The translations under genes were made by a program, and so were the position numbers. From NCBI RefSeq assembly GCF_001677475.2, contig NZ_CP015229.1: DNA of 64,000 nt. One strand, given 5' to 3'. A model generated the notes under the pieces. That model did no database searches and was not told the DNA's origin. It was given only the letters and a program-made list of their open reading frames with translations. The DNA is from Escherichia coli. GTDB taxonomy: Bacteria > Pseudomonadota > Gammaproteobacteria > Enterobacterales > Enterobacteriaceae. This document shows positions 17,342 to 21,514 of this stretch, piece by piece (position 1 is the first letter of the stretch; each line of letters begins with the position of its first letter).

Positions 17342-18817
17342 ATGTCGCTGGGTTCAATTCCTGATGATATCCGCGTCCCGCTCGTCGTGATCGATATTGA
17401 CAATTCACAGGCGCTGGACAGTGCATCCGCGCAAAGCCGAAAAATTCTGGTCATGGGCCATGCGGTATCGTCCGGCAGCGCAGACGCCCTGTCACTGACC
17501 CGCATCACCAGTGACAGCCAGGCAGAGCAGCTTTATGGCAAAGGGTCTATGCTGGCTGAAATGCTCAAAATACTGCGTCGTGCCAACACGTACACGGAAA
17601 CCTGGGCAATGCCGGTTGCCGCACCTGTTGGCGCTGCCGCAAAAGCCACGCTGACCGTGCTGGGGACAGCAACAGAGGCCGGAACGGTGGCACTACTGAT
17701 TAACGGTGTCTCCGTTCAGGTGGGCGTGAGCGCCGGGGATACCAAAGAAAACATTGCAAAAGCCATTGCTGATGCGGTGACGAAAAAGCCTGCCACGCAG
17801 GTGGCCGCTGCGGTGAAGGATGATGCCACGGATACCGTGGAGCTGACCGTGAACTGGCACGGCGTCACCGGCAACGGTGCCGACGTTCGCCTGAACTACT
17901 ACACCGGTGAAGCCTTCCCGGCAGGTGTGAAGGTGACCGCAACCGCGTTTACCGGCGGCACCGGGACACCGGAAATGGCAGACGCCGTTGCGGCCATCGG
18001 CCCGGAGTGGTTTACCGATATCATCGCCCCGTTCACCGACACGCAAAGCCTGAACACCCTGCGTGATGAACTGCTGAACCGCTGGGGGCCGCTCAGGATG
18101 ATGGAAGCGCAGCTATGGACGGCGTTTCGTGGCACGCACGGCGAGACAGGCACGTTTGGTGAAACCCGCAATGACTGGCTGATTAGCTGTATCGGCACCA
18201 ACCTGTCACCGCATCCGGCGTGGATGTGGGCCGCGTCATACGGCGCAACGGCAGCGTATCACCTTGCCATTGACCCGGCGCGTCCGCTTCAGACGCTGGT
18301 CCTGACCGGCATTCTGCCGCCTGCGCGTAATGTTCGCTGGGATATGCCGGAACGTAACCTGCTGCTGCATGACGGCATTGCCACGCACATGGTGGACGCC
18401 GGGGATAACGTCTGCATAGAGCGTGAAATCACCATGTACCGGGTTAATCAGTACGGTGATGCGGATGTGTCGTACCTGGATGTGCAGTCGCCCGCCACGC
18501 TGGGCCGTATCCGTTACATCATCAAAAACCGTTTCTCGAACCGTTATCCGCGCCACAAGCTGGCGGATGATGACGTGCTGGACTCGCTGGATGCGGGGCA
18601 GCCGGTGATGACGCCGAAGCTGTGCACCGCAGAGCTGCTGGATATCTGCCAGACCGAACTTATCCCGGCAGGCCTTGTGGAGAACTTCAGCGATTACAGG
18701 GACACGCTTCAGGTGACACGCGACAGCAGCGATAAAAACCGCCTGAACTTTATCTGCCACCCGAATCTGGTGAACCAGCTGCGTGTGCTGGCAGGCCTGA
18801 TTCAGTTCAGAGTTTAA
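17342..18817 (+). CDS. contractile tail sheath protein (Mu L family)
   Basis: 491 aa; AGAGGAAG RBS; followed by tube gene. Confidence 0.85.
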   Translation: MSLGSIPDDIRVPLVVIDIDNSQALDSASAQSRKILVMGHAVSSGSADALSLTRITSDSQAEQLYGKGSMLAEMLKILRRANTYTETWAMPVAAPVGAAAKATLTVLGTATEAGTVALLINGVSVQVGVSAGDTKENIAKAIADAVTKKPATQVAAAVKDDATDTVELTVNWHGVTGNGADVRLNYYTGEAFPAGVKVTATAFTGGTGTPEMADAVAAIGPEWFTDIIAPFTDTQSLNTLRDELLNRWGPLRMMEAQLWTAFRGTHGETGTFGETRNDWLISCIGTNLSPHPAWMWAASYGATAAYHLAIDPARPLQTLVLTGILPPARNVRWDMPERNLLLHDGIATHMVDAGDNVCIEREITMYRVNQYGDADVSYLDVQSPATLGRIRYIIKNRFSNRYPRHKLADDDVLDSLDAGQPVMTPKLCTAELLDICQTELIPAGLVENFSDYRDTLQVTRDSSDKNRLNFICHPNLVNQLRVLAGLIQFRV

Positions 18818-18826
18818 GGGGGCCGC

Positions 18827-19183
18827 ATGGCAAAAATTCTTGGCATGGCGACCATTCGCGTGAATGGCCGCGAAATTAAAACCGAGGGGAAATCCACGCT
18901 GAATCCAGGCGGCTTCAGTCGCACCCAGCATATGGGCGGCGGCAAGGTCTGGGGCATCTCCAGCAAGATGGCCTCGCCGTCCATCAAAGTGACCATTGCG
19001 GCGGCTGCGGATATGGACGTGATTGAAATCAGCAGCTGGGAAGACGTCACGGTGATGTTCTACGGCGACAACGGCCTGAACTACATGATGACGGGGTCCG
19101 CCACGGATAACCCGGCGGAGCTGGACGAGGATTCCGGCACCATCAGTGCAAACTTTATCGGTGAAAAATGCGTGAAGGTGTGA
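18827..19183 (+). CDS. tail tube protein (Mu M family)
   Basis: 118 aa; directly after sheath. Confidence 0.8.
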   Translation: MAKILGMATIRVNGREIKTEGKSTLNPGGFSRTQHMGGGKVWGISSKMASPSIKVTIAAAADMDVIEISSWEDVTVMFYGDNGLNYMMTGSATDNPAELDEDSGTISANFIGEKCVKV

Positions 19184-19184
19184 C

Positions 19185-19580
19185 ATGGCCGCGATGGAAT
19201 TTGAACTGAAACACGGGCTTCTGACCGGCAAAGGCACGGCAGATGAAACCCTGCATAAAACCGTGAAGCTGCGCGAACTGACTGCCAGTGATGTGATTGA
19301 TGCGCAACTGGCCGCAGAACGCGTCGTCATGGGCGGGAACGGAAAGGCGGTGGCCTACTGCTCTGAAGTGCTGATGGGGCTGGAGATGATGCGCCGTCAG
19401 GTTGCGGCCATCGGCAGTATTCCCGGCCCGCTGGACATGAAACAGTTGCGAATGCTCCACCCCGCAGACCTTGAGCTTATCAGCACGAAAGCTGCTGCGC
19501 TGGATGACATGCTTGAGGAGGTGGCAACGCGGGGGCGAACTGATGCCGCTGGCGGCGGCACTGATGAACCTGCTGGTTAA
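19185..19580 (+). CDS. tail assembly chaperone-like protein
   Basis: 131 aa between tube and tape measure; overlapping ORF 19471..19680 in +1 frame. Confidence 0.55.
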   Translation: MAAMEFELKHGLLTGKGTADETLHKTVKLRELTASDVIDAQLAAERVVMGGNGKAVAYCSEVLMGLEMMRRQVAAIGSIPGPLDMKQLRMLHPADLELISTKAAALDDMLEEVATRGRTDAAGGGTDEPAG

Positions 19581-19666
19581 CCTGTCTTCGAGATTCAGCA
19601 TTCAGTACCTGGAACAGCTGCCCCTGCGGCAGCTGTTCCGCCTGATAAAGCAACTGGAGAAACAGC

Positions 19667-21514
19667 ATGGCAACAGGTAACCGTCTCAGCACGGAAATCA
19701 TGATCAACCTTGCCGGGAACCTGACCGCCAAAGCCCGGCAGTACGGCGCAAATATGTCGCAGTTCGCCCGGAACCATCAGAAGGCTATGAGCCTTGTCAA
19801 AGCCACAACGGAGGCCGCAGGACGCGGCCTTGATACGCTTGGTAACCGCTACACGGCAATGATAGCCGGGCTTGGCAGTAGTCTTACCATCAAACAGGTT
19901 GCCGATTTTGATGCGCAGATGCGCCGGATGGGTACGGATGCCCAGTTAACCACTGAACAGGTAAAGACGCTTCACGACAAAATCAGGGATGTATCGAACC
20001 AGAAAGATATTCGTATTGATGCTTCTGCGCTTGGTCAGGGGGCCAGCGAACTTCTGGGGAAAACCGGTGATTATCAGTATGTGGTGGACAACCTCCGCAA
20101 CATGGGGTTGATGATGCAGGCGTTCGGTGTTGACGGACAGGTTGCAGCCGGGCTGATGGCCCAGTTCTGGGAAAAAAACGTCCGGGGTGCTGAGGCGGTC
20201 AATAACATGATGGACAGGCTGTATTCGCAGTTCGCAGTGGGGTCTGTTAGCGTTGCCGATGTTGCCCGCGCTGCCCCGAAACTGTTTTCCATCATTCAGG
20301 ATCAGGGACCGGAAGCCATTGCCCAGATGGGGGCATTTGCTCAGGTGTTCGCCAAAAACAAAGGCAGCATTGATGAGACGGTAACCAGTATTCAGGCCAT
20401 GTATGCTTCCCTGTCGGACAAAAAGAACATCGAGTTCCTGAAAAAAAACGGCATTGACGTTTTTGTCAAAGGCACAAAAGACATCAAAAAGCCCTATGAG
20501 CTGATGATGGAAATCCTTAAACGGGCCAAATACGATCCGCTGAAACTTCAGGATGTGTTTGATCTGACCGGAATGCAGGGGATTAAGGCGCTGCTTAACC
20601 CTGAAAACCGGCAACTGATGGAACAAATGATTTACGGCACGATTGAGCTGGGTTCCACGCAAAAGGCCGCACAGACCAATGCCGAAGGCTTTAATGCCGC
20701 AATACAGTCACTGAATAACGAATGGCAACGTTTTGCTGAAGGACAACTGGCAAAACCCGTTCAGGAGCTGGCGGATGCGCTCAACAGCGTGGACCAGCAT
20801 ACCGTCCAGAACTGGTTGCAGGTCGGTAAATATATGGCGATTGCTGTGGGCGGCATTATCGCCATCAGAAAAACGTACCAGTTAGGTAAAACCCTCCACG
20901 ACATCATGAATCCCAAAGGGAAAGGCAAAGGAATACCCGGTGCCATTACTGACGTTTTTGGTTCCGGCGTGATACCTGTTTATGTGGTCAATATGGGCAG
21001 CTTTGGTCCGGGTAAGGACGGTGGTCTGCCGGATCTCCCTGACCTCCCGGAGTTACCGGAAAACTCCGGCGGTTCAGGTAACGGTCGGGGACGTTTTATA
21101 GGGAAAATCCTCGGTCCTGTGCTGGGGGCAATGGCTGTAAAAGAGCGTCTGGAAACACTATACGCCCTGCCGGATGAAACAGACTCACTCACGAAATCTG
21201 TGGCTGCTGACCCCAGCGCCAGCCCGTGGGAGCGCGAGTTCGCGCAACAAAGTCAGGACAACCAGAAAGCGCTCGAGTCCGTCTGGCGTAAGGTAACGGA
21301 CTGGTTCAGTTCGCTGGGTGACAAGAACATTGCTGACCCGCGACCGTGGGCAGGTATGCAGGGCACACAGAATTATCCTTTCCTTCCGCAGCAGTTGCAG
21401 GGGGAAATCCGTGTGGTGGTGGAAGGTGACGCCCGCGTGAAAAGTGTCAGAGTGGATCAACCCGGCGTCAGACTCAGTGCGCAGGCTGGCGTCACCAGCG
21501 TGGAGCAAGGGTAA
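19667..21514 (+). CDS. tail tape measure protein
   Basis: 615 aa, Ala/Gln-rich helical, Gly-rich C-terminal stretch. Confidence 0.8.
   Translation: MATGNRLSTEIMINLAGNLTAKARQYGANMSQFARNHQKAMSLVKATTEAAGRGLDTLGNRYTAMIAGLGSSLTIKQVADFDAQMRRMGTDAQLTTEQVKTLHDKIRDVSNQKDIRIDASALGQGASELLGKTGDYQYVVDNLRNMGLMMQAFGVDGQVAAGLMAQFWEKNVRGAEAVNNMMDRLYSQFAVGSVSVADVARAAPKLFSIIQDQGPEAIAQMGAFAQVFAKNKGSIDETVTSIQAMYASLSDKKNIEFLKKNGIDVFVKGTKDIKKPYELMMEILKRAKYDPLKLQDVFDLTGMQGIKALLNPENRQLMEQMIYGTIELGSTQKAAQTNAEGFNAAIQSLNNEWQRFAEGQLAKPVQELADALNSVDQHTVQNWLQVGKYMAIAVGGIIAIRKTYQLGKTLHDIMNPKGKGKGIPGAITDVFGSGVIPVYVVNMGSFGPGKDGGLPDLPDLPELPENSGGSGNGRGRFIGKILGPVLGAMAVKERLETLYALPDETDSLTKSVAADPSASPWEREFAQQSQDNQKALESVWRKVTDWFSSLGDKNIADPRPWAGMQGTQNYPFLPQQLQGEIRVVVEGDARVKSVRVDQPGVRLSAQAGVTSVEQG

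What the first reader, a model, noticed from the sequence alone, without database searches (positions are those of the whole stretch)
19185..19680. Tail chaperone gene with overlapping +1-frame ORF ending at the tape-measure start
A 131-aa chaperone-like ORF is overlapped from 19471 by a 69-aa ORF in the +1 frame that ends just after the tape-measure ATG. Many tailed phages make a chaperone fusion by programmed frameshifting at this position; here the geometry would need a +1 (or -2) shift.
Basis: inference. Interest (0 to 1): 0.3.

Follow-up and report, generated by a model that had tools for sequence, protein, structure and literature searches.

The report
Mu-type −2 frameshift in tail chaperone
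This is the tail-assembly chaperone gene of a Mu-like prophage of E. coli. It carries the same rare "slip back two bases" signal (GG GGG CGA) already shown in phage Mu to make a longer chaperone, so it is a real but already understood feature.

Summary
A 131-aa ORF (19185-19580, Pfam Gp41_Mu, E 4e-37) lies between the tail tube gene and the tape-measure gene of a Mu-like E. coli prophage. A +1-frame ORF overlaps it and stops at 19678-19680, 11 nt past the tape-measure ATG (19667).

At 19530-19538 the zero frame reads CGG GGG CGA. This is the same signal, in the same frame, as in phage Mu, where a −2 ribosomal frameshift is documented (GenBank Mu_56, UniProt P0DJY4, Xu et al. 2004).

In 124 related loci (82 distinct sequences, chaperones down to 40% identity) the nonamer [C/A]GGGGGCGA is invariant. 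The +1 frame is always open from the G-run to the tape-measure start. The TTG at 19471 is irrelevant, because a 99%-identical relative has a +1-frame stop 6 nt before the G-run. The predicted products are 131 aa and a 165-aa fusion. RefSeq does not annotate the fusion.

Two things appear to be new:
- An internal Shine-Dalgarno-like GGAG lies 12 nt upstream of the slip codon and is conserved at nucleotide level outside the Mu group.
- A 13-bp RNA hairpin (19610-19640) just upstream of the tape-measure ribosome-binding site is supported by covariation.

Verdict: a new member of a known kind, of low to moderate interest.

The parts
18827..19183 (+). Tail tube gene (118 aa), directly upstream of the chaperone
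   Evidence: PF10618 Tail_tube E 4e-38. PGAP calls the 97%-identical STEC719 copy 'phage tail tube protein'.
19185..19580 (+). Zero-frame tail assembly chaperone gene (131 aa, Mu gp41 homologue), stop TAA 19578-19580
   Evidence: PF23746 Gp41_Mu E 4.4e-37 and phrog_508 'tail assembly chaperone' E 7e-37. The exact 131-aa sequence occurs on 175 contigs named 'phage tail assembly protein [Escherichia coli]'.
19515..19523 (+). Internal Shine-Dalgarno-like GAGGAGGUG (core GGAG 19517-19520), 12 nt 5' of the P-site GGG codon. Candidate 5' stimulator (inferred).
   Evidence: Duplex with the 16S 3' end is -14.9 kcal/mol, stronger than every background window. Codon -4 is GAG in 32/39 distinct sequences and never GAA. 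The third base of codon -5 is G in 38/39, across T, S, A, G, E, Q, K and M codons. The baseline G-ending product is 1.5e-4 and GAG is 35% of Glu codons. The element is absent in Mu, SfMu and L043.
19530..19538 (+). Slip site CGG GGG CGA (zero frame). The published Mu -2 signal GG GGG CGA corresponds to 19531-19538.
   Evidence: It is the only occurrence in the 64-kb window. It is identical to Mu in sequence and frame. [C/A]GGGGGCGA is invariant in 82/82 distinct sequences from 124 loci. CGA is 5%, CGG 15% and GGG 20% of their synonymous sets in this prophage.
19534..19680 (+). -2/+1-frame extension (48 codons plus stop TAA 19678-19680), read only after the shift. The fusion product is 165 aa.
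   Evidence: 48 distinct extension peptides of 47-52 aa carry a conserved LP[LI]R motif. phrog_38797 E 3e-33. BLASTP of the window fusion against Mu FS-gp41 is collinear through the junction to residue 157. Substitutions favour codon position 3 over position 2.
19544..19560 (+). Possible proximal hairpin (7 bp, loop GGC), 5 nt after CGA. Unproven.
   Evidence: It is in the centroid of the fold. It has no covariation (0 double changes, no better than shuffles). The z-score is about 0, and Mu, Vibrio and Pasteurella relatives have no equivalent.
19610..19640 (+). Conserved 13-bp RNA hairpin (19610-19622 pairs with 19628-19640, loop CCUGC) inside the extension. It ends 15 nt before the tape-measure SD.
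   Evidence: In 33 distinct sequences, 95.8% of cells are paired, 5 pairs have changes on both sides (51 cells), 0/500 shuffles reach this, and slid controls give 18-60% paired. G-U pairs point to RNA on the + strand. It is not terminator-like and has no Rfam family.
19656..19669 (+). Tape-measure ribosome-binding site GGAG (19656-19659) and ATG (19667-19669)
   Evidence: Read from the sequence. ORF 19667..21514.
19667..21514 (+). Tape measure protein gene (615 aa)
   Evidence: phrog_973 'tail length tape measure protein' E 3e-126. PGAP names in E. coli relatives include 'phage tail tape measure protein'.

Best explanation
The region is the tail-assembly chaperone gene of a Mu-like transposable myovirus prophage of E. 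coli. It makes two proteins from one start codon.

Most ribosomes read 19185-19580 and release a 131-aa chaperone. A minority slip back two nucleotides when peptidyl-tRNA-Gly sits on GGG (19533-19535) and CGA (19536-19538) is in the A site. tRNA-Gly re-pairs perfectly with GGG at 19531-19533. In the published tandem model, tRNA-Arg (anticodon ICG) re-pairs with GGC at 19534-19536. Reading then continues at GAA (19537) to the TAA at 19678-19680.

This gives a 165-aa fusion: 117 N-terminal chaperone residues, one junction residue, and a 47-residue helical C-terminal module. The junction residue is Gly if only the P-site tRNA slips and Arg if both slip.

By analogy with lambda gpG/gpGT, the shared N-domain would coat the tape-measure protein and the extension would recruit the tube protein. 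The low shift frequency would set the ratio of the two forms.

Shown here: the anatomy, the identity of the signal with Mu, and its conservation. Taken from the literature on Mu: that the shift is -2 and ribosomal. Inferred: that it happens in this prophage, the roles of the two domains, and any role for the upstream SD-like GGAG as a stimulator.
For: Gene order is sheath-tube-chaperone-TMP, with Gp41_Mu at E 4e-37.

CGG GGG CGA is in the same frame as in Mu. Mu_56 is annotated 'verified -2 translational frameshift'. Reviews state that -2 is used in Mu, and the signal is described as tandem -2 slippage on GG GGG CGA. The -2 model reproduces UniProt P0DJY4 exactly, while the +1-type 187-aa sequence does not occur exactly in the collection.

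The nonamer is invariant in 82/82 distinct sequences from E. coli, Klebsiella, Vibrio, Shewanella, Pasteurella and Alteromonadaceae phages, although the flanks diverge and all three codons are minority codons. R116-G117-R118 are invariant, while the zero-frame tail after them varies in length (1-13 aa) and sequence.

The +1 frame is always open from the G5 run to the TMP start. The extension peptides are homologous. The AF2 model places the slip site in a low-confidence linker between a folded N-domain and a helical C-module.

No conserved start codon exists in the extension. Mu (GEWLRC), Shewanella (GDLKAL) and the GELTPL lineages lack one.
Against: - There are no protein or ribosome-profiling data for this prophage. 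The experimental evidence comes from Mu, whose chaperone is only 48% identical.
- No conserved downstream stimulatory structure was found across the family.
- The G5 run also allows a -1 slip, which here would end after two codons (GCG AAC TGA).
- In this clade an ATG at 19543 lies 7 nt after the G-run, so some independent initiation of a 45-aa peptide cannot be excluded by sequence alone.
- The functional split (N-domain binds TMP, extension binds tube) is carried over from lambda. It is not tested in any Mu-like phage that I could find.
Confidence: 0.87

Rival explanations
1. The +1-frame ORF is a separate small gene, translated by its own initiation (TTG 19471, or ATG 19543 with the G-run acting as a ribosome-binding site). 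It would give a free 45-69-aa protein rather than a fusion.
For: Gene callers do annotate it this way. D108 gp42 is a 48-aa 'hypothetical protein' and PHROGs holds phrog_38797, 12783 and 10716 as small ORFs of unknown function. In the window ATG 19543 lies 7 nt after GGGGG.
Against: The TTG 19471 start cannot be general. L003 (99% identical) has a +1-frame TAG 6 nt before the G-run, and Mu and L038 close the frame 6-9 nt before it. No start codon is conserved at or after the G-run; Mu, Shewanella, Vibrio and the GELTPL and GEFKQL lineages have none near the conserved N-terminus. This reading does not explain why all nine bases including CGA are invariant. Mu has a verified fusion.
Confidence: 0.04
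2. The shift to the +1 frame is made at the RNA level. RNA polymerase slips on the G5 run (deleting one G or adding two), and normal translation of the edited mRNA gives the fusion.
For: The site is a homopolymer run. Insertion of two G would give the same protein as a P-site -2 slip. One Logan contig encodes a directly fused 164-aa protein with one G fewer (P0001).
Against: Known bacterial transcriptional slippage needs longer runs, mostly of A or T; runs of 9 are cited. Slippage does not explain the invariance of CGA or of the reading frame of the run. The Mu record and the reviews call the event translational. P0001 is a single 1.6-kb contig and is most simply a homopolymer error.
Confidence: 0.04
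3. The shift is +1 rather than -2, for example tRNA-Gly moving from GGG to GGC. This would give a 164-aa fusion with one residue fewer.
Against: A +1 move gives mismatched re-pairing (GGG to GGC, or CGG to GGG). A -2 move gives perfect GGG to GGG re-pairing. A run of exactly five G placed at xGG GGG is conserved in all 82 distinct sequences, which is what -2 needs. Mu is annotated and reviewed as -2.
Confidence: 0.04
4. The overlap is a chance open frame in G+C-rich DNA and only the 131-aa protein is made.
For: The G+C-rich region has many shadow ORFs on both strands. None of the minus-strand ones has a family match.
Against: The frame is open in 124/124 loci with 48 distinct but alignable peptides. 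The slip nonamer is invariant, and the codon-position pattern is that of coding sequence.
Confidence: 0.01

Closest known systems
Phage Mu gp41 / FS-gp41 (Mu_41 / Mu_56; UniProt P0DJY4), -2 programmed ribosomal frameshift on GG GGG CGA (Xu, Hendrix & Duda 2004, PMID 15469818)
   Same: The Pfam family (Gp41_Mu) and the position between tube and tape-measure genes are the same. The nonamer CGG GGG CGA is identical and in the same frame near the 3' end. The extension is of similar size (48 vs 51 aa), has a shared LPL motif, and ends near the TMP start. The fusion proteins align collinearly across the junction.
   Different: Chaperone identity is only 48% and there is no megablast DNA similarity. 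The zero-frame tail after the site is longer (13 vs 8 aa). The extension stop overlaps the TMP start here (-11 nt) but precedes it in Mu (+17 nt). The window clade has an upstream SD-like GGAG and a covarying 13-bp hairpin, both of which Mu lacks. There is no experimental proof for this prophage.
Lambda gpG / gpGT (-1 frameshift at G GGA AAG; Levin et al. 1993; Xu et al. 2013, 2014)
   Same: The logic is the same: a chaperone gene just upstream of the tape-measure gene, a low-frequency frameshift near its 3' end, and two products sharing an N-terminus, neither found in the virion (review text).
   Different: The shift direction and size differ (-1 vs -2), as do the slippery sequence and the protein family. 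Lambda has a siphovirus tail and its T extension is larger. The functional roles are demonstrated for lambda only.
P2 gpE / gpE+E' and other Phage_TAC_7 (PF10109) chaperones of contractile-tail phages
   Same: The window protein also matches PF10109 (E 1.5e-7). Both belong to contractile-tail phages with the same gene order.
   Different: From my own knowledge, P2 uses a -1 shift on a T-rich heptamer. I did not test this here.
E. coli dnaX and IS-element -1 frameshift cassettes (5' Shine-Dalgarno stimulator plus 3' stem-loop)
   Same: An internal SD-like element lies about 10-12 nt upstream of the slip codon. A 5' SD is 'a major feature' of dnaX and of about 56% of IS elements.
   Different: Those are -1 shifts on A AAA AAG. 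The SD-like element here has not been tested functionally and is missing in Mu itself.

Membership tests
Mu-type tail assembly chaperone with -2 programmed frameshift (gp41 / FS-gp41) | The protein belongs to the Gp41_Mu family | tested here: met
   PF23746 E 4.4e-37, 126.9 bits against a cut-off of 27. 48% identity to Mu gp41 by tblastn.
Mu-type tail assembly chaperone with -2 programmed frameshift (gp41 / FS-gp41) | The gene lies between the tail tube gene and the tape-measure gene of a contractile-tail phage | tested here: met
   Sheath, tube, chaperone and TMP run in order. A full Mu-like prophage context is seen in the 97%-identical STEC719 locus: transposase, Gam, Mor, gpT, Com and Mom.
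Mu-type tail assembly chaperone with -2 programmed frameshift (gp41 / FS-gp41) | [quoted passage not shown] | tested here: met
   19531-19538, in the same frame as Mu L001:1850-1857. The signal as published is quoted. It is the only copy in the window.
Mu-type tail assembly chaperone with -2 programmed frameshift (gp41 / FS-gp41) | The -2/+1 frame is open from the slip site to about the tape-measure start and encodes a conserved extension | tested here: met
   19534-19680. 124/124 loci are open. The alignment runs through the junction with Mu FS-gp41.
Mu-type tail assembly chaperone with -2 programmed frameshift (gp41 / FS-gp41) | The fusion protein is actually produced by ribosomal -2 slippage | not testable with these tools
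   This needs mass spectrometry or a reporter assay. It is documented only for Mu (annotation).
Lambda G/GT-type chaperone function (N-domain binds tape measure, extension binds tube protein, ratio critical) | The two products bind TMP and tube protein respectively and are absent from virions | not testable with these tools
   There is only a monomer AF2 model showing two modules joined by a linker at the slip site. The Mu cryo-EM study could not resolve gp41 in the virion.
dnaX-like frameshift cassette (5' SD plus slippery site plus 3' stem-loop) | Conserved internal SD-like element 10-14 nt 5' of the shift site | tested here: inconclusive
   GGAG is conserved at nucleotide level in all non-Mu lineages. 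It is absent in Mu, SfMu and L043, and no functional test was possible.
dnaX-like frameshift cassette (5' SD plus slippery site plus 3' stem-loop) | Conserved 3' stem-loop 5-9 nt after the slippery site | tested here: not met
   The 7-bp hairpin 19544-19560 has no covariation and is not above shuffles. Distant relatives have no equivalent.

The most novel reading that the evidence does not exclude
In the enterobacterial branch of Mu-like phages, the -2 frameshift cassette may carry two cis elements that I did not find described. The first is an internal Shine-Dalgarno-like GGAG 12 nt upstream, which could raise or tune -2 slippage. The second is a covarying 13-bp RNA hairpin (19610-19640), lying in the stretch translated only by shifted ribosomes and ending 15 nt upstream of the tape-measure ribosome-binding site. 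The hairpin could couple chaperone, fusion and tape-measure output. It could do this by shaping re-initiation or mRNA stability in the ribosome-poor gap after the zero-frame stop.
Probability: 0.3. Interest if true: 0.45.

Novelty: new member of a known kind. Interest (0 to 1): 0.25.

Why it matters
Minus-two ribosomal frameshifts are rare. In 2012 Mu was called the only documented case. Here the exact Mu signal is invariant across 124 Mu-like loci from at least six host genera. This shows the mechanism is a fixed trait of the whole gp41 family rather than a peculiarity of Mu.

There is also a practical point. RefSeq/PGAP annotation of these E. coli prophages leaves the 165-aa fusion unannotated. 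PHROGs files the extension as three separate small families of unknown function. A simple rule would fix many annotations: a Gp41_Mu gene, plus GGGGGCGA in frame, plus an open +1 frame to the tape-measure gene.

The SD-like element and the covarying hairpin give recoding specialists two testable handles on how a -2 shift is tuned.

Tried and rejected
- Megablast of 18800-19800 against phage records found nothing. Relatedness to Mu shows only at protein level.
- The original Xu et al. 2004 paper is not held. I relied on the GenBank note and on three papers that cite it.
- A downstream stimulatory structure shared by the family was sought by folding 52 nt after the site in 12 lineages. The z-scores run from -2.0 to +1.0 and no common element appeared.
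- The proximal 7-bp hairpin in the window clade has no covariation, so I do not claim it.
- Sequence search of the PDB and Foldseek of the AF2 model against the PDB gave no meaningful match, so there is no structural analogue for either domain.
- NCBIfam has no model for the fusion or the TMP.
- Rfam has no family in 19000-19900. The distal hairpin is not terminator-like.
- Minus-strand ORFs over the region (148, 364 and 83 aa) have no Pfam match and are treated as shadow ORFs.
- The second IMG/VR scan with an alignment kept only the best 80 of 193 hits. The most distant gp41 relatives were therefore not sampled, and the outer limit of the GGGGGCGA signal in the family is not defined.
Full report
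**1. What is in the sequence**

One search confirms both ORFs. One is a 131-aa ORF at 19185-19580. The other is a 69-aa ORF at 19471-19680 in the +1 frame. Its TAA (19678-19680) lies 11 nt beyond the ATG (19667) of a 615-aa ORF.

The 131-aa protein matches Pfam Gp41_Mu (PF23746, E 4.4e-37) and more weakly Phage_TAC_7. The gene upstream is a tail tube protein (PF10618) and before it a sheath protein. The 615-aa ORF is a tape-measure protein (phrog_973, E 3e-126).

The window is 94-97% identical to prophages in 48 complete E. coli genomes. In strain STEC719 the same module sits in a complete Mu-like prophage with transposase, AAA ATPase, Gam, Mor, gpT head protein, Com and Mom. Minus-strand ORFs across the region have no family match.

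**2. The slip site**

At 19530-19538 the zero frame reads CGG GGG CGA, and this is the only copy of the nonamer in 64 kb. Phage Mu has no detectable DNA similarity to the window, and its gp41 is 48% identical. Even so, it has the same nonamer in the same frame near the end of gp41 (L001:1849-1857).

The evidence that Mu shifts by -2:
- The curated Mu record annotates a two-piece CDS, Mu_56, as 'verified -2 translational frameshift in PMID 15469818; tail assembly chaperone frameshift product'.
- The review of Atkins et al. lists Mu among users of -2 frameshifting.
- Lin et al. 2012 describe the signal as tandem -2 slippage on GG GGG CGA. In their account the A-site tRNA-Arg (anticodon ICG) re-pairs better in the -2 frame than in the -1 frame.

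I modelled the shift as follows: read through GGG, step back two bases, then continue. Applied to Mu, this reproduces exactly the 188-aa UniProt entry P0DJY4, 'Probable tail assembly protein FS-gp41'. It falls in the same cluster as GenBank UIW09302.1. The alternative +1-type 187-aa sequence does not occur exactly in the collection.

Applied to the window, the model gives a 165-aa fusion. That exact sequence is in no database. PGAP leaves the equivalent of 19581-19666 unannotated.

**3. Conservation**

I collected 124 loci. They came from two IMG/VR scans and from annotated phages: Mu, SfMu, Klebsiella Kp4866-3, Vibrio martha and 1.028.O, Shewanella MuM16-2, Pasteurella Pmp9, Alteromonadaceae B23, and a Mu-like insert in an Stx phage.

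- Every locus has [C/A]GGGGGCGA in the same frame near the chaperone 3' end. Among 82 distinct sequences, 80 have CGG and 2 have AGG.
- The first base varies and the other eight never do, which matches the published GG GGG CGA signal.
- The flanks diverge freely.
- In the protein alignment R116-G117-R118 are invariant, while the zero-frame tail after them varies from 1 to 13 residues.
- In this prophage's own genes CGG, GGG and CGA make up 15%, 20% and 5% of their synonymous sets. Amino-acid conservation alone would therefore not fix these codons.
- The +1 frame is open from the G-run to within -20 to +17 nt of the tape-measure start in all loci. The -1 frame closes after 2-32 codons.
- The 48 distinct extension peptides (47-52 aa) align, with a conserved LP[LI]R motif.
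- BLASTP of the window fusion against Mu FS-gp41 runs collinearly across the junction to residue 157.
- Between clades, substitutions in the extension frame are fewest at codon position 2, and many are synonymous.

**4.

The TTG at 19471 is irrelevant. In L003 (99% identical) a +1-frame TAG lies 6 nt before the G-run. In Mu and Shewanella MuM16-2 the +1 frame opens only 6-9 nt before it.

No start codon is conserved after the G-run either. Mu (GEWLRC), Shewanella and Vibrio martha (GDLKAL), and the GEFKQL and GELTPL lineages have none. This argues against a separately initiated small gene, although gene callers and PHROGs treat it that way. The small-ORF entries are phrog_38797, 12783 and 10716 (all 'unknown function') and D108 gp42.

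**5. Mechanism**

- **Shown:** the anatomy and the conservation described above.
- **From the literature:** the -2 ribosomal slippage, demonstrated in Mu.
- **Inferred for this prophage:** peptidyl-tRNA-Gly on GGG (19533-35) re-pairs with GGG (19531-33). The A-site tRNA-Arg on CGA either has not yet bound, which puts Gly (from GGC) at the junction. Or it slips in tandem onto GGC, which puts Arg at the junction. Decoding resumes at GAA (19537).

The conceptual join in UniProt and GenBank shows Gly. The tandem model implies Arg. Only a junction peptide can decide between them.

An AF2 model of the fusion has mean pLDDT 82. It shows a folded N-domain (residues 1-115), a low-confidence linker exactly at the slip site, and three short helices at 121-162. 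This fits a two-module protein. Neither sequence search nor fold search found a solved relative.

The division of labour (N-domain on the tape measure, extension on the tube protein, low shift rate setting the ratio) is carried over from lambda gpG/gpGT. It is not tested here.

**6. Possible stimulators**

No downstream structure is shared across the family. In the window clade a 7-bp hairpin starts 5 nt after CGA (19544-19560). Its core never varies and it shows no covariation, so I leave it as unproven.

Upstream, the window has GAGGAGGUG (19515-19523):
- Its predicted pairing to the 16S 3' end is -14.9 kcal/mol, stronger than any background window.
- A GGAG core sits at the same place in every lineage except the Mu, SfMu and L043 group.
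- Codon -4 is GAG in 32 of 39 distinct sequences and never GAA, although GAA is the commoner Glu codon here (65%).
- The third base of codon -5 is G in 38 of 39, across codons for eight different amino acids.

That is nucleotide-level selection. The spacing is 12 nt to the P-site codon. A 5' Shine-Dalgarno stimulator is a known feature of dnaX and of many IS-element -1 shifts. No start codon follows at initiation distance, so this is not a ribosome-binding site for a gene. I propose it as a candidate stimulator, but only as an inference.

**7. Seen in passing**

A 13-bp hairpin (19610-19622 pairing with 19628-19640) lies inside the extension, over the codons LEQLPLRQLF. It ends 15 nt before the tape-measure SD (GGAG, 19656-19659).

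In 33 distinct sequences of the enterobacterial clade, 95.8% of cells are paired. Five pairs change on both sides (51 cells), including coupled non-synonymous changes (E...F to Q...L). No shuffle in 500 reaches this, and slid controls fall to 18-60% paired. G-U pairs point to RNA on the sense strand.

It is not terminator-like, has no Rfam family, and is absent from the Mu, Vibrio and Pasteurella relatives. At 72 nt past the end of the slip site it is too far downstream to be a classical frameshift stimulator. Its position suggests a role in tape-measure translation or mRNA stability, but I have no test of that.

**8. Verdict**

This is a Mu-type -2 programmed frameshift on GG GGG CGA, in a Mu-like E. 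coli prophage. It is a new member of a known kind.

Interest is low to moderate. The phenomenon has been known in Mu since 2004. The family-wide invariance of the signal, the missing annotation, and the two candidate cis elements add modest value.

Noticed in passing
window 19610-19640 (+): A 13-bp RNA hairpin (loop CCUGC) lies inside the frameshift extension and ends 15 nt before the tape-measure ribosome-binding site. It has strong covariation in the enterobacterial clade: 95.8% paired, 5 pairs with double changes, 0/500 shuffles. It is absent in Mu, Vibrio and Pasteurella relatives. It is not a terminator and has no Rfam family. Its function is unknown.
   Followed up: partly
window 19515-19523 (+): An internal Shine-Dalgarno-like GAGGAGGUG lies 12 nt 5' of the slip codon. 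The GGAG core is kept at nucleotide level in all non-Mu lineages (GAG never GAA; the preceding codon always ends in G across eight amino acids). No start codon follows at initiation distance.
   Followed up: partly
window 19536-19538; Mu L001:1855-1857: The database fusion sequences (UniProt P0DJY4, GenBank UIW09302.1) show Gly at the junction, taken from the conceptual join. The published tandem-slippage model (A-site tRNA-Arg moves onto GGC) would instead put Arg there. The true junction residue is not settled by anything I could read.
   Followed up: no
protein P0001 (Logan contig, 1580 nt), equivalent to window 19531-19535: One public contig encodes a directly fused 164-aa chaperone-extension protein with one G fewer in the run (junction ...TRGELMPL...). 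It is probably a homopolymer sequencing error. It could also be a natural fused allele or a slipped transcript.
   Followed up: no
window 19535-19543 (+): The G5 run would also allow a -1 slip. In the window that frame reads GCG AAC TGA and would give a truncated 119-aa product. In Mu the -1 frame runs on for 12 codons past the gp41 stop. Whether any -1 product forms is unknown.
   Followed up: no
L125:34764-38587 (E. coli STEC719, downstream of the Mu-like prophage): In strain STEC719 a second, P2-like tail gene remnant follows the Mu-like prophage: 'phage tail assembly protein', tail protein X and late control protein. It has its own chaperone gene, which may carry its own frameshift. I did not check whether the window has it.
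   Followed up: no
PHROGs phrog_38797, phrog_12783, phrog_10716: Three PHROG families of 'unknown function' (45-58 aa) are the frameshift extensions of Mu-like chaperones called as stand-alone ORFs. They are the same feature split across families.
   Followed up: partly
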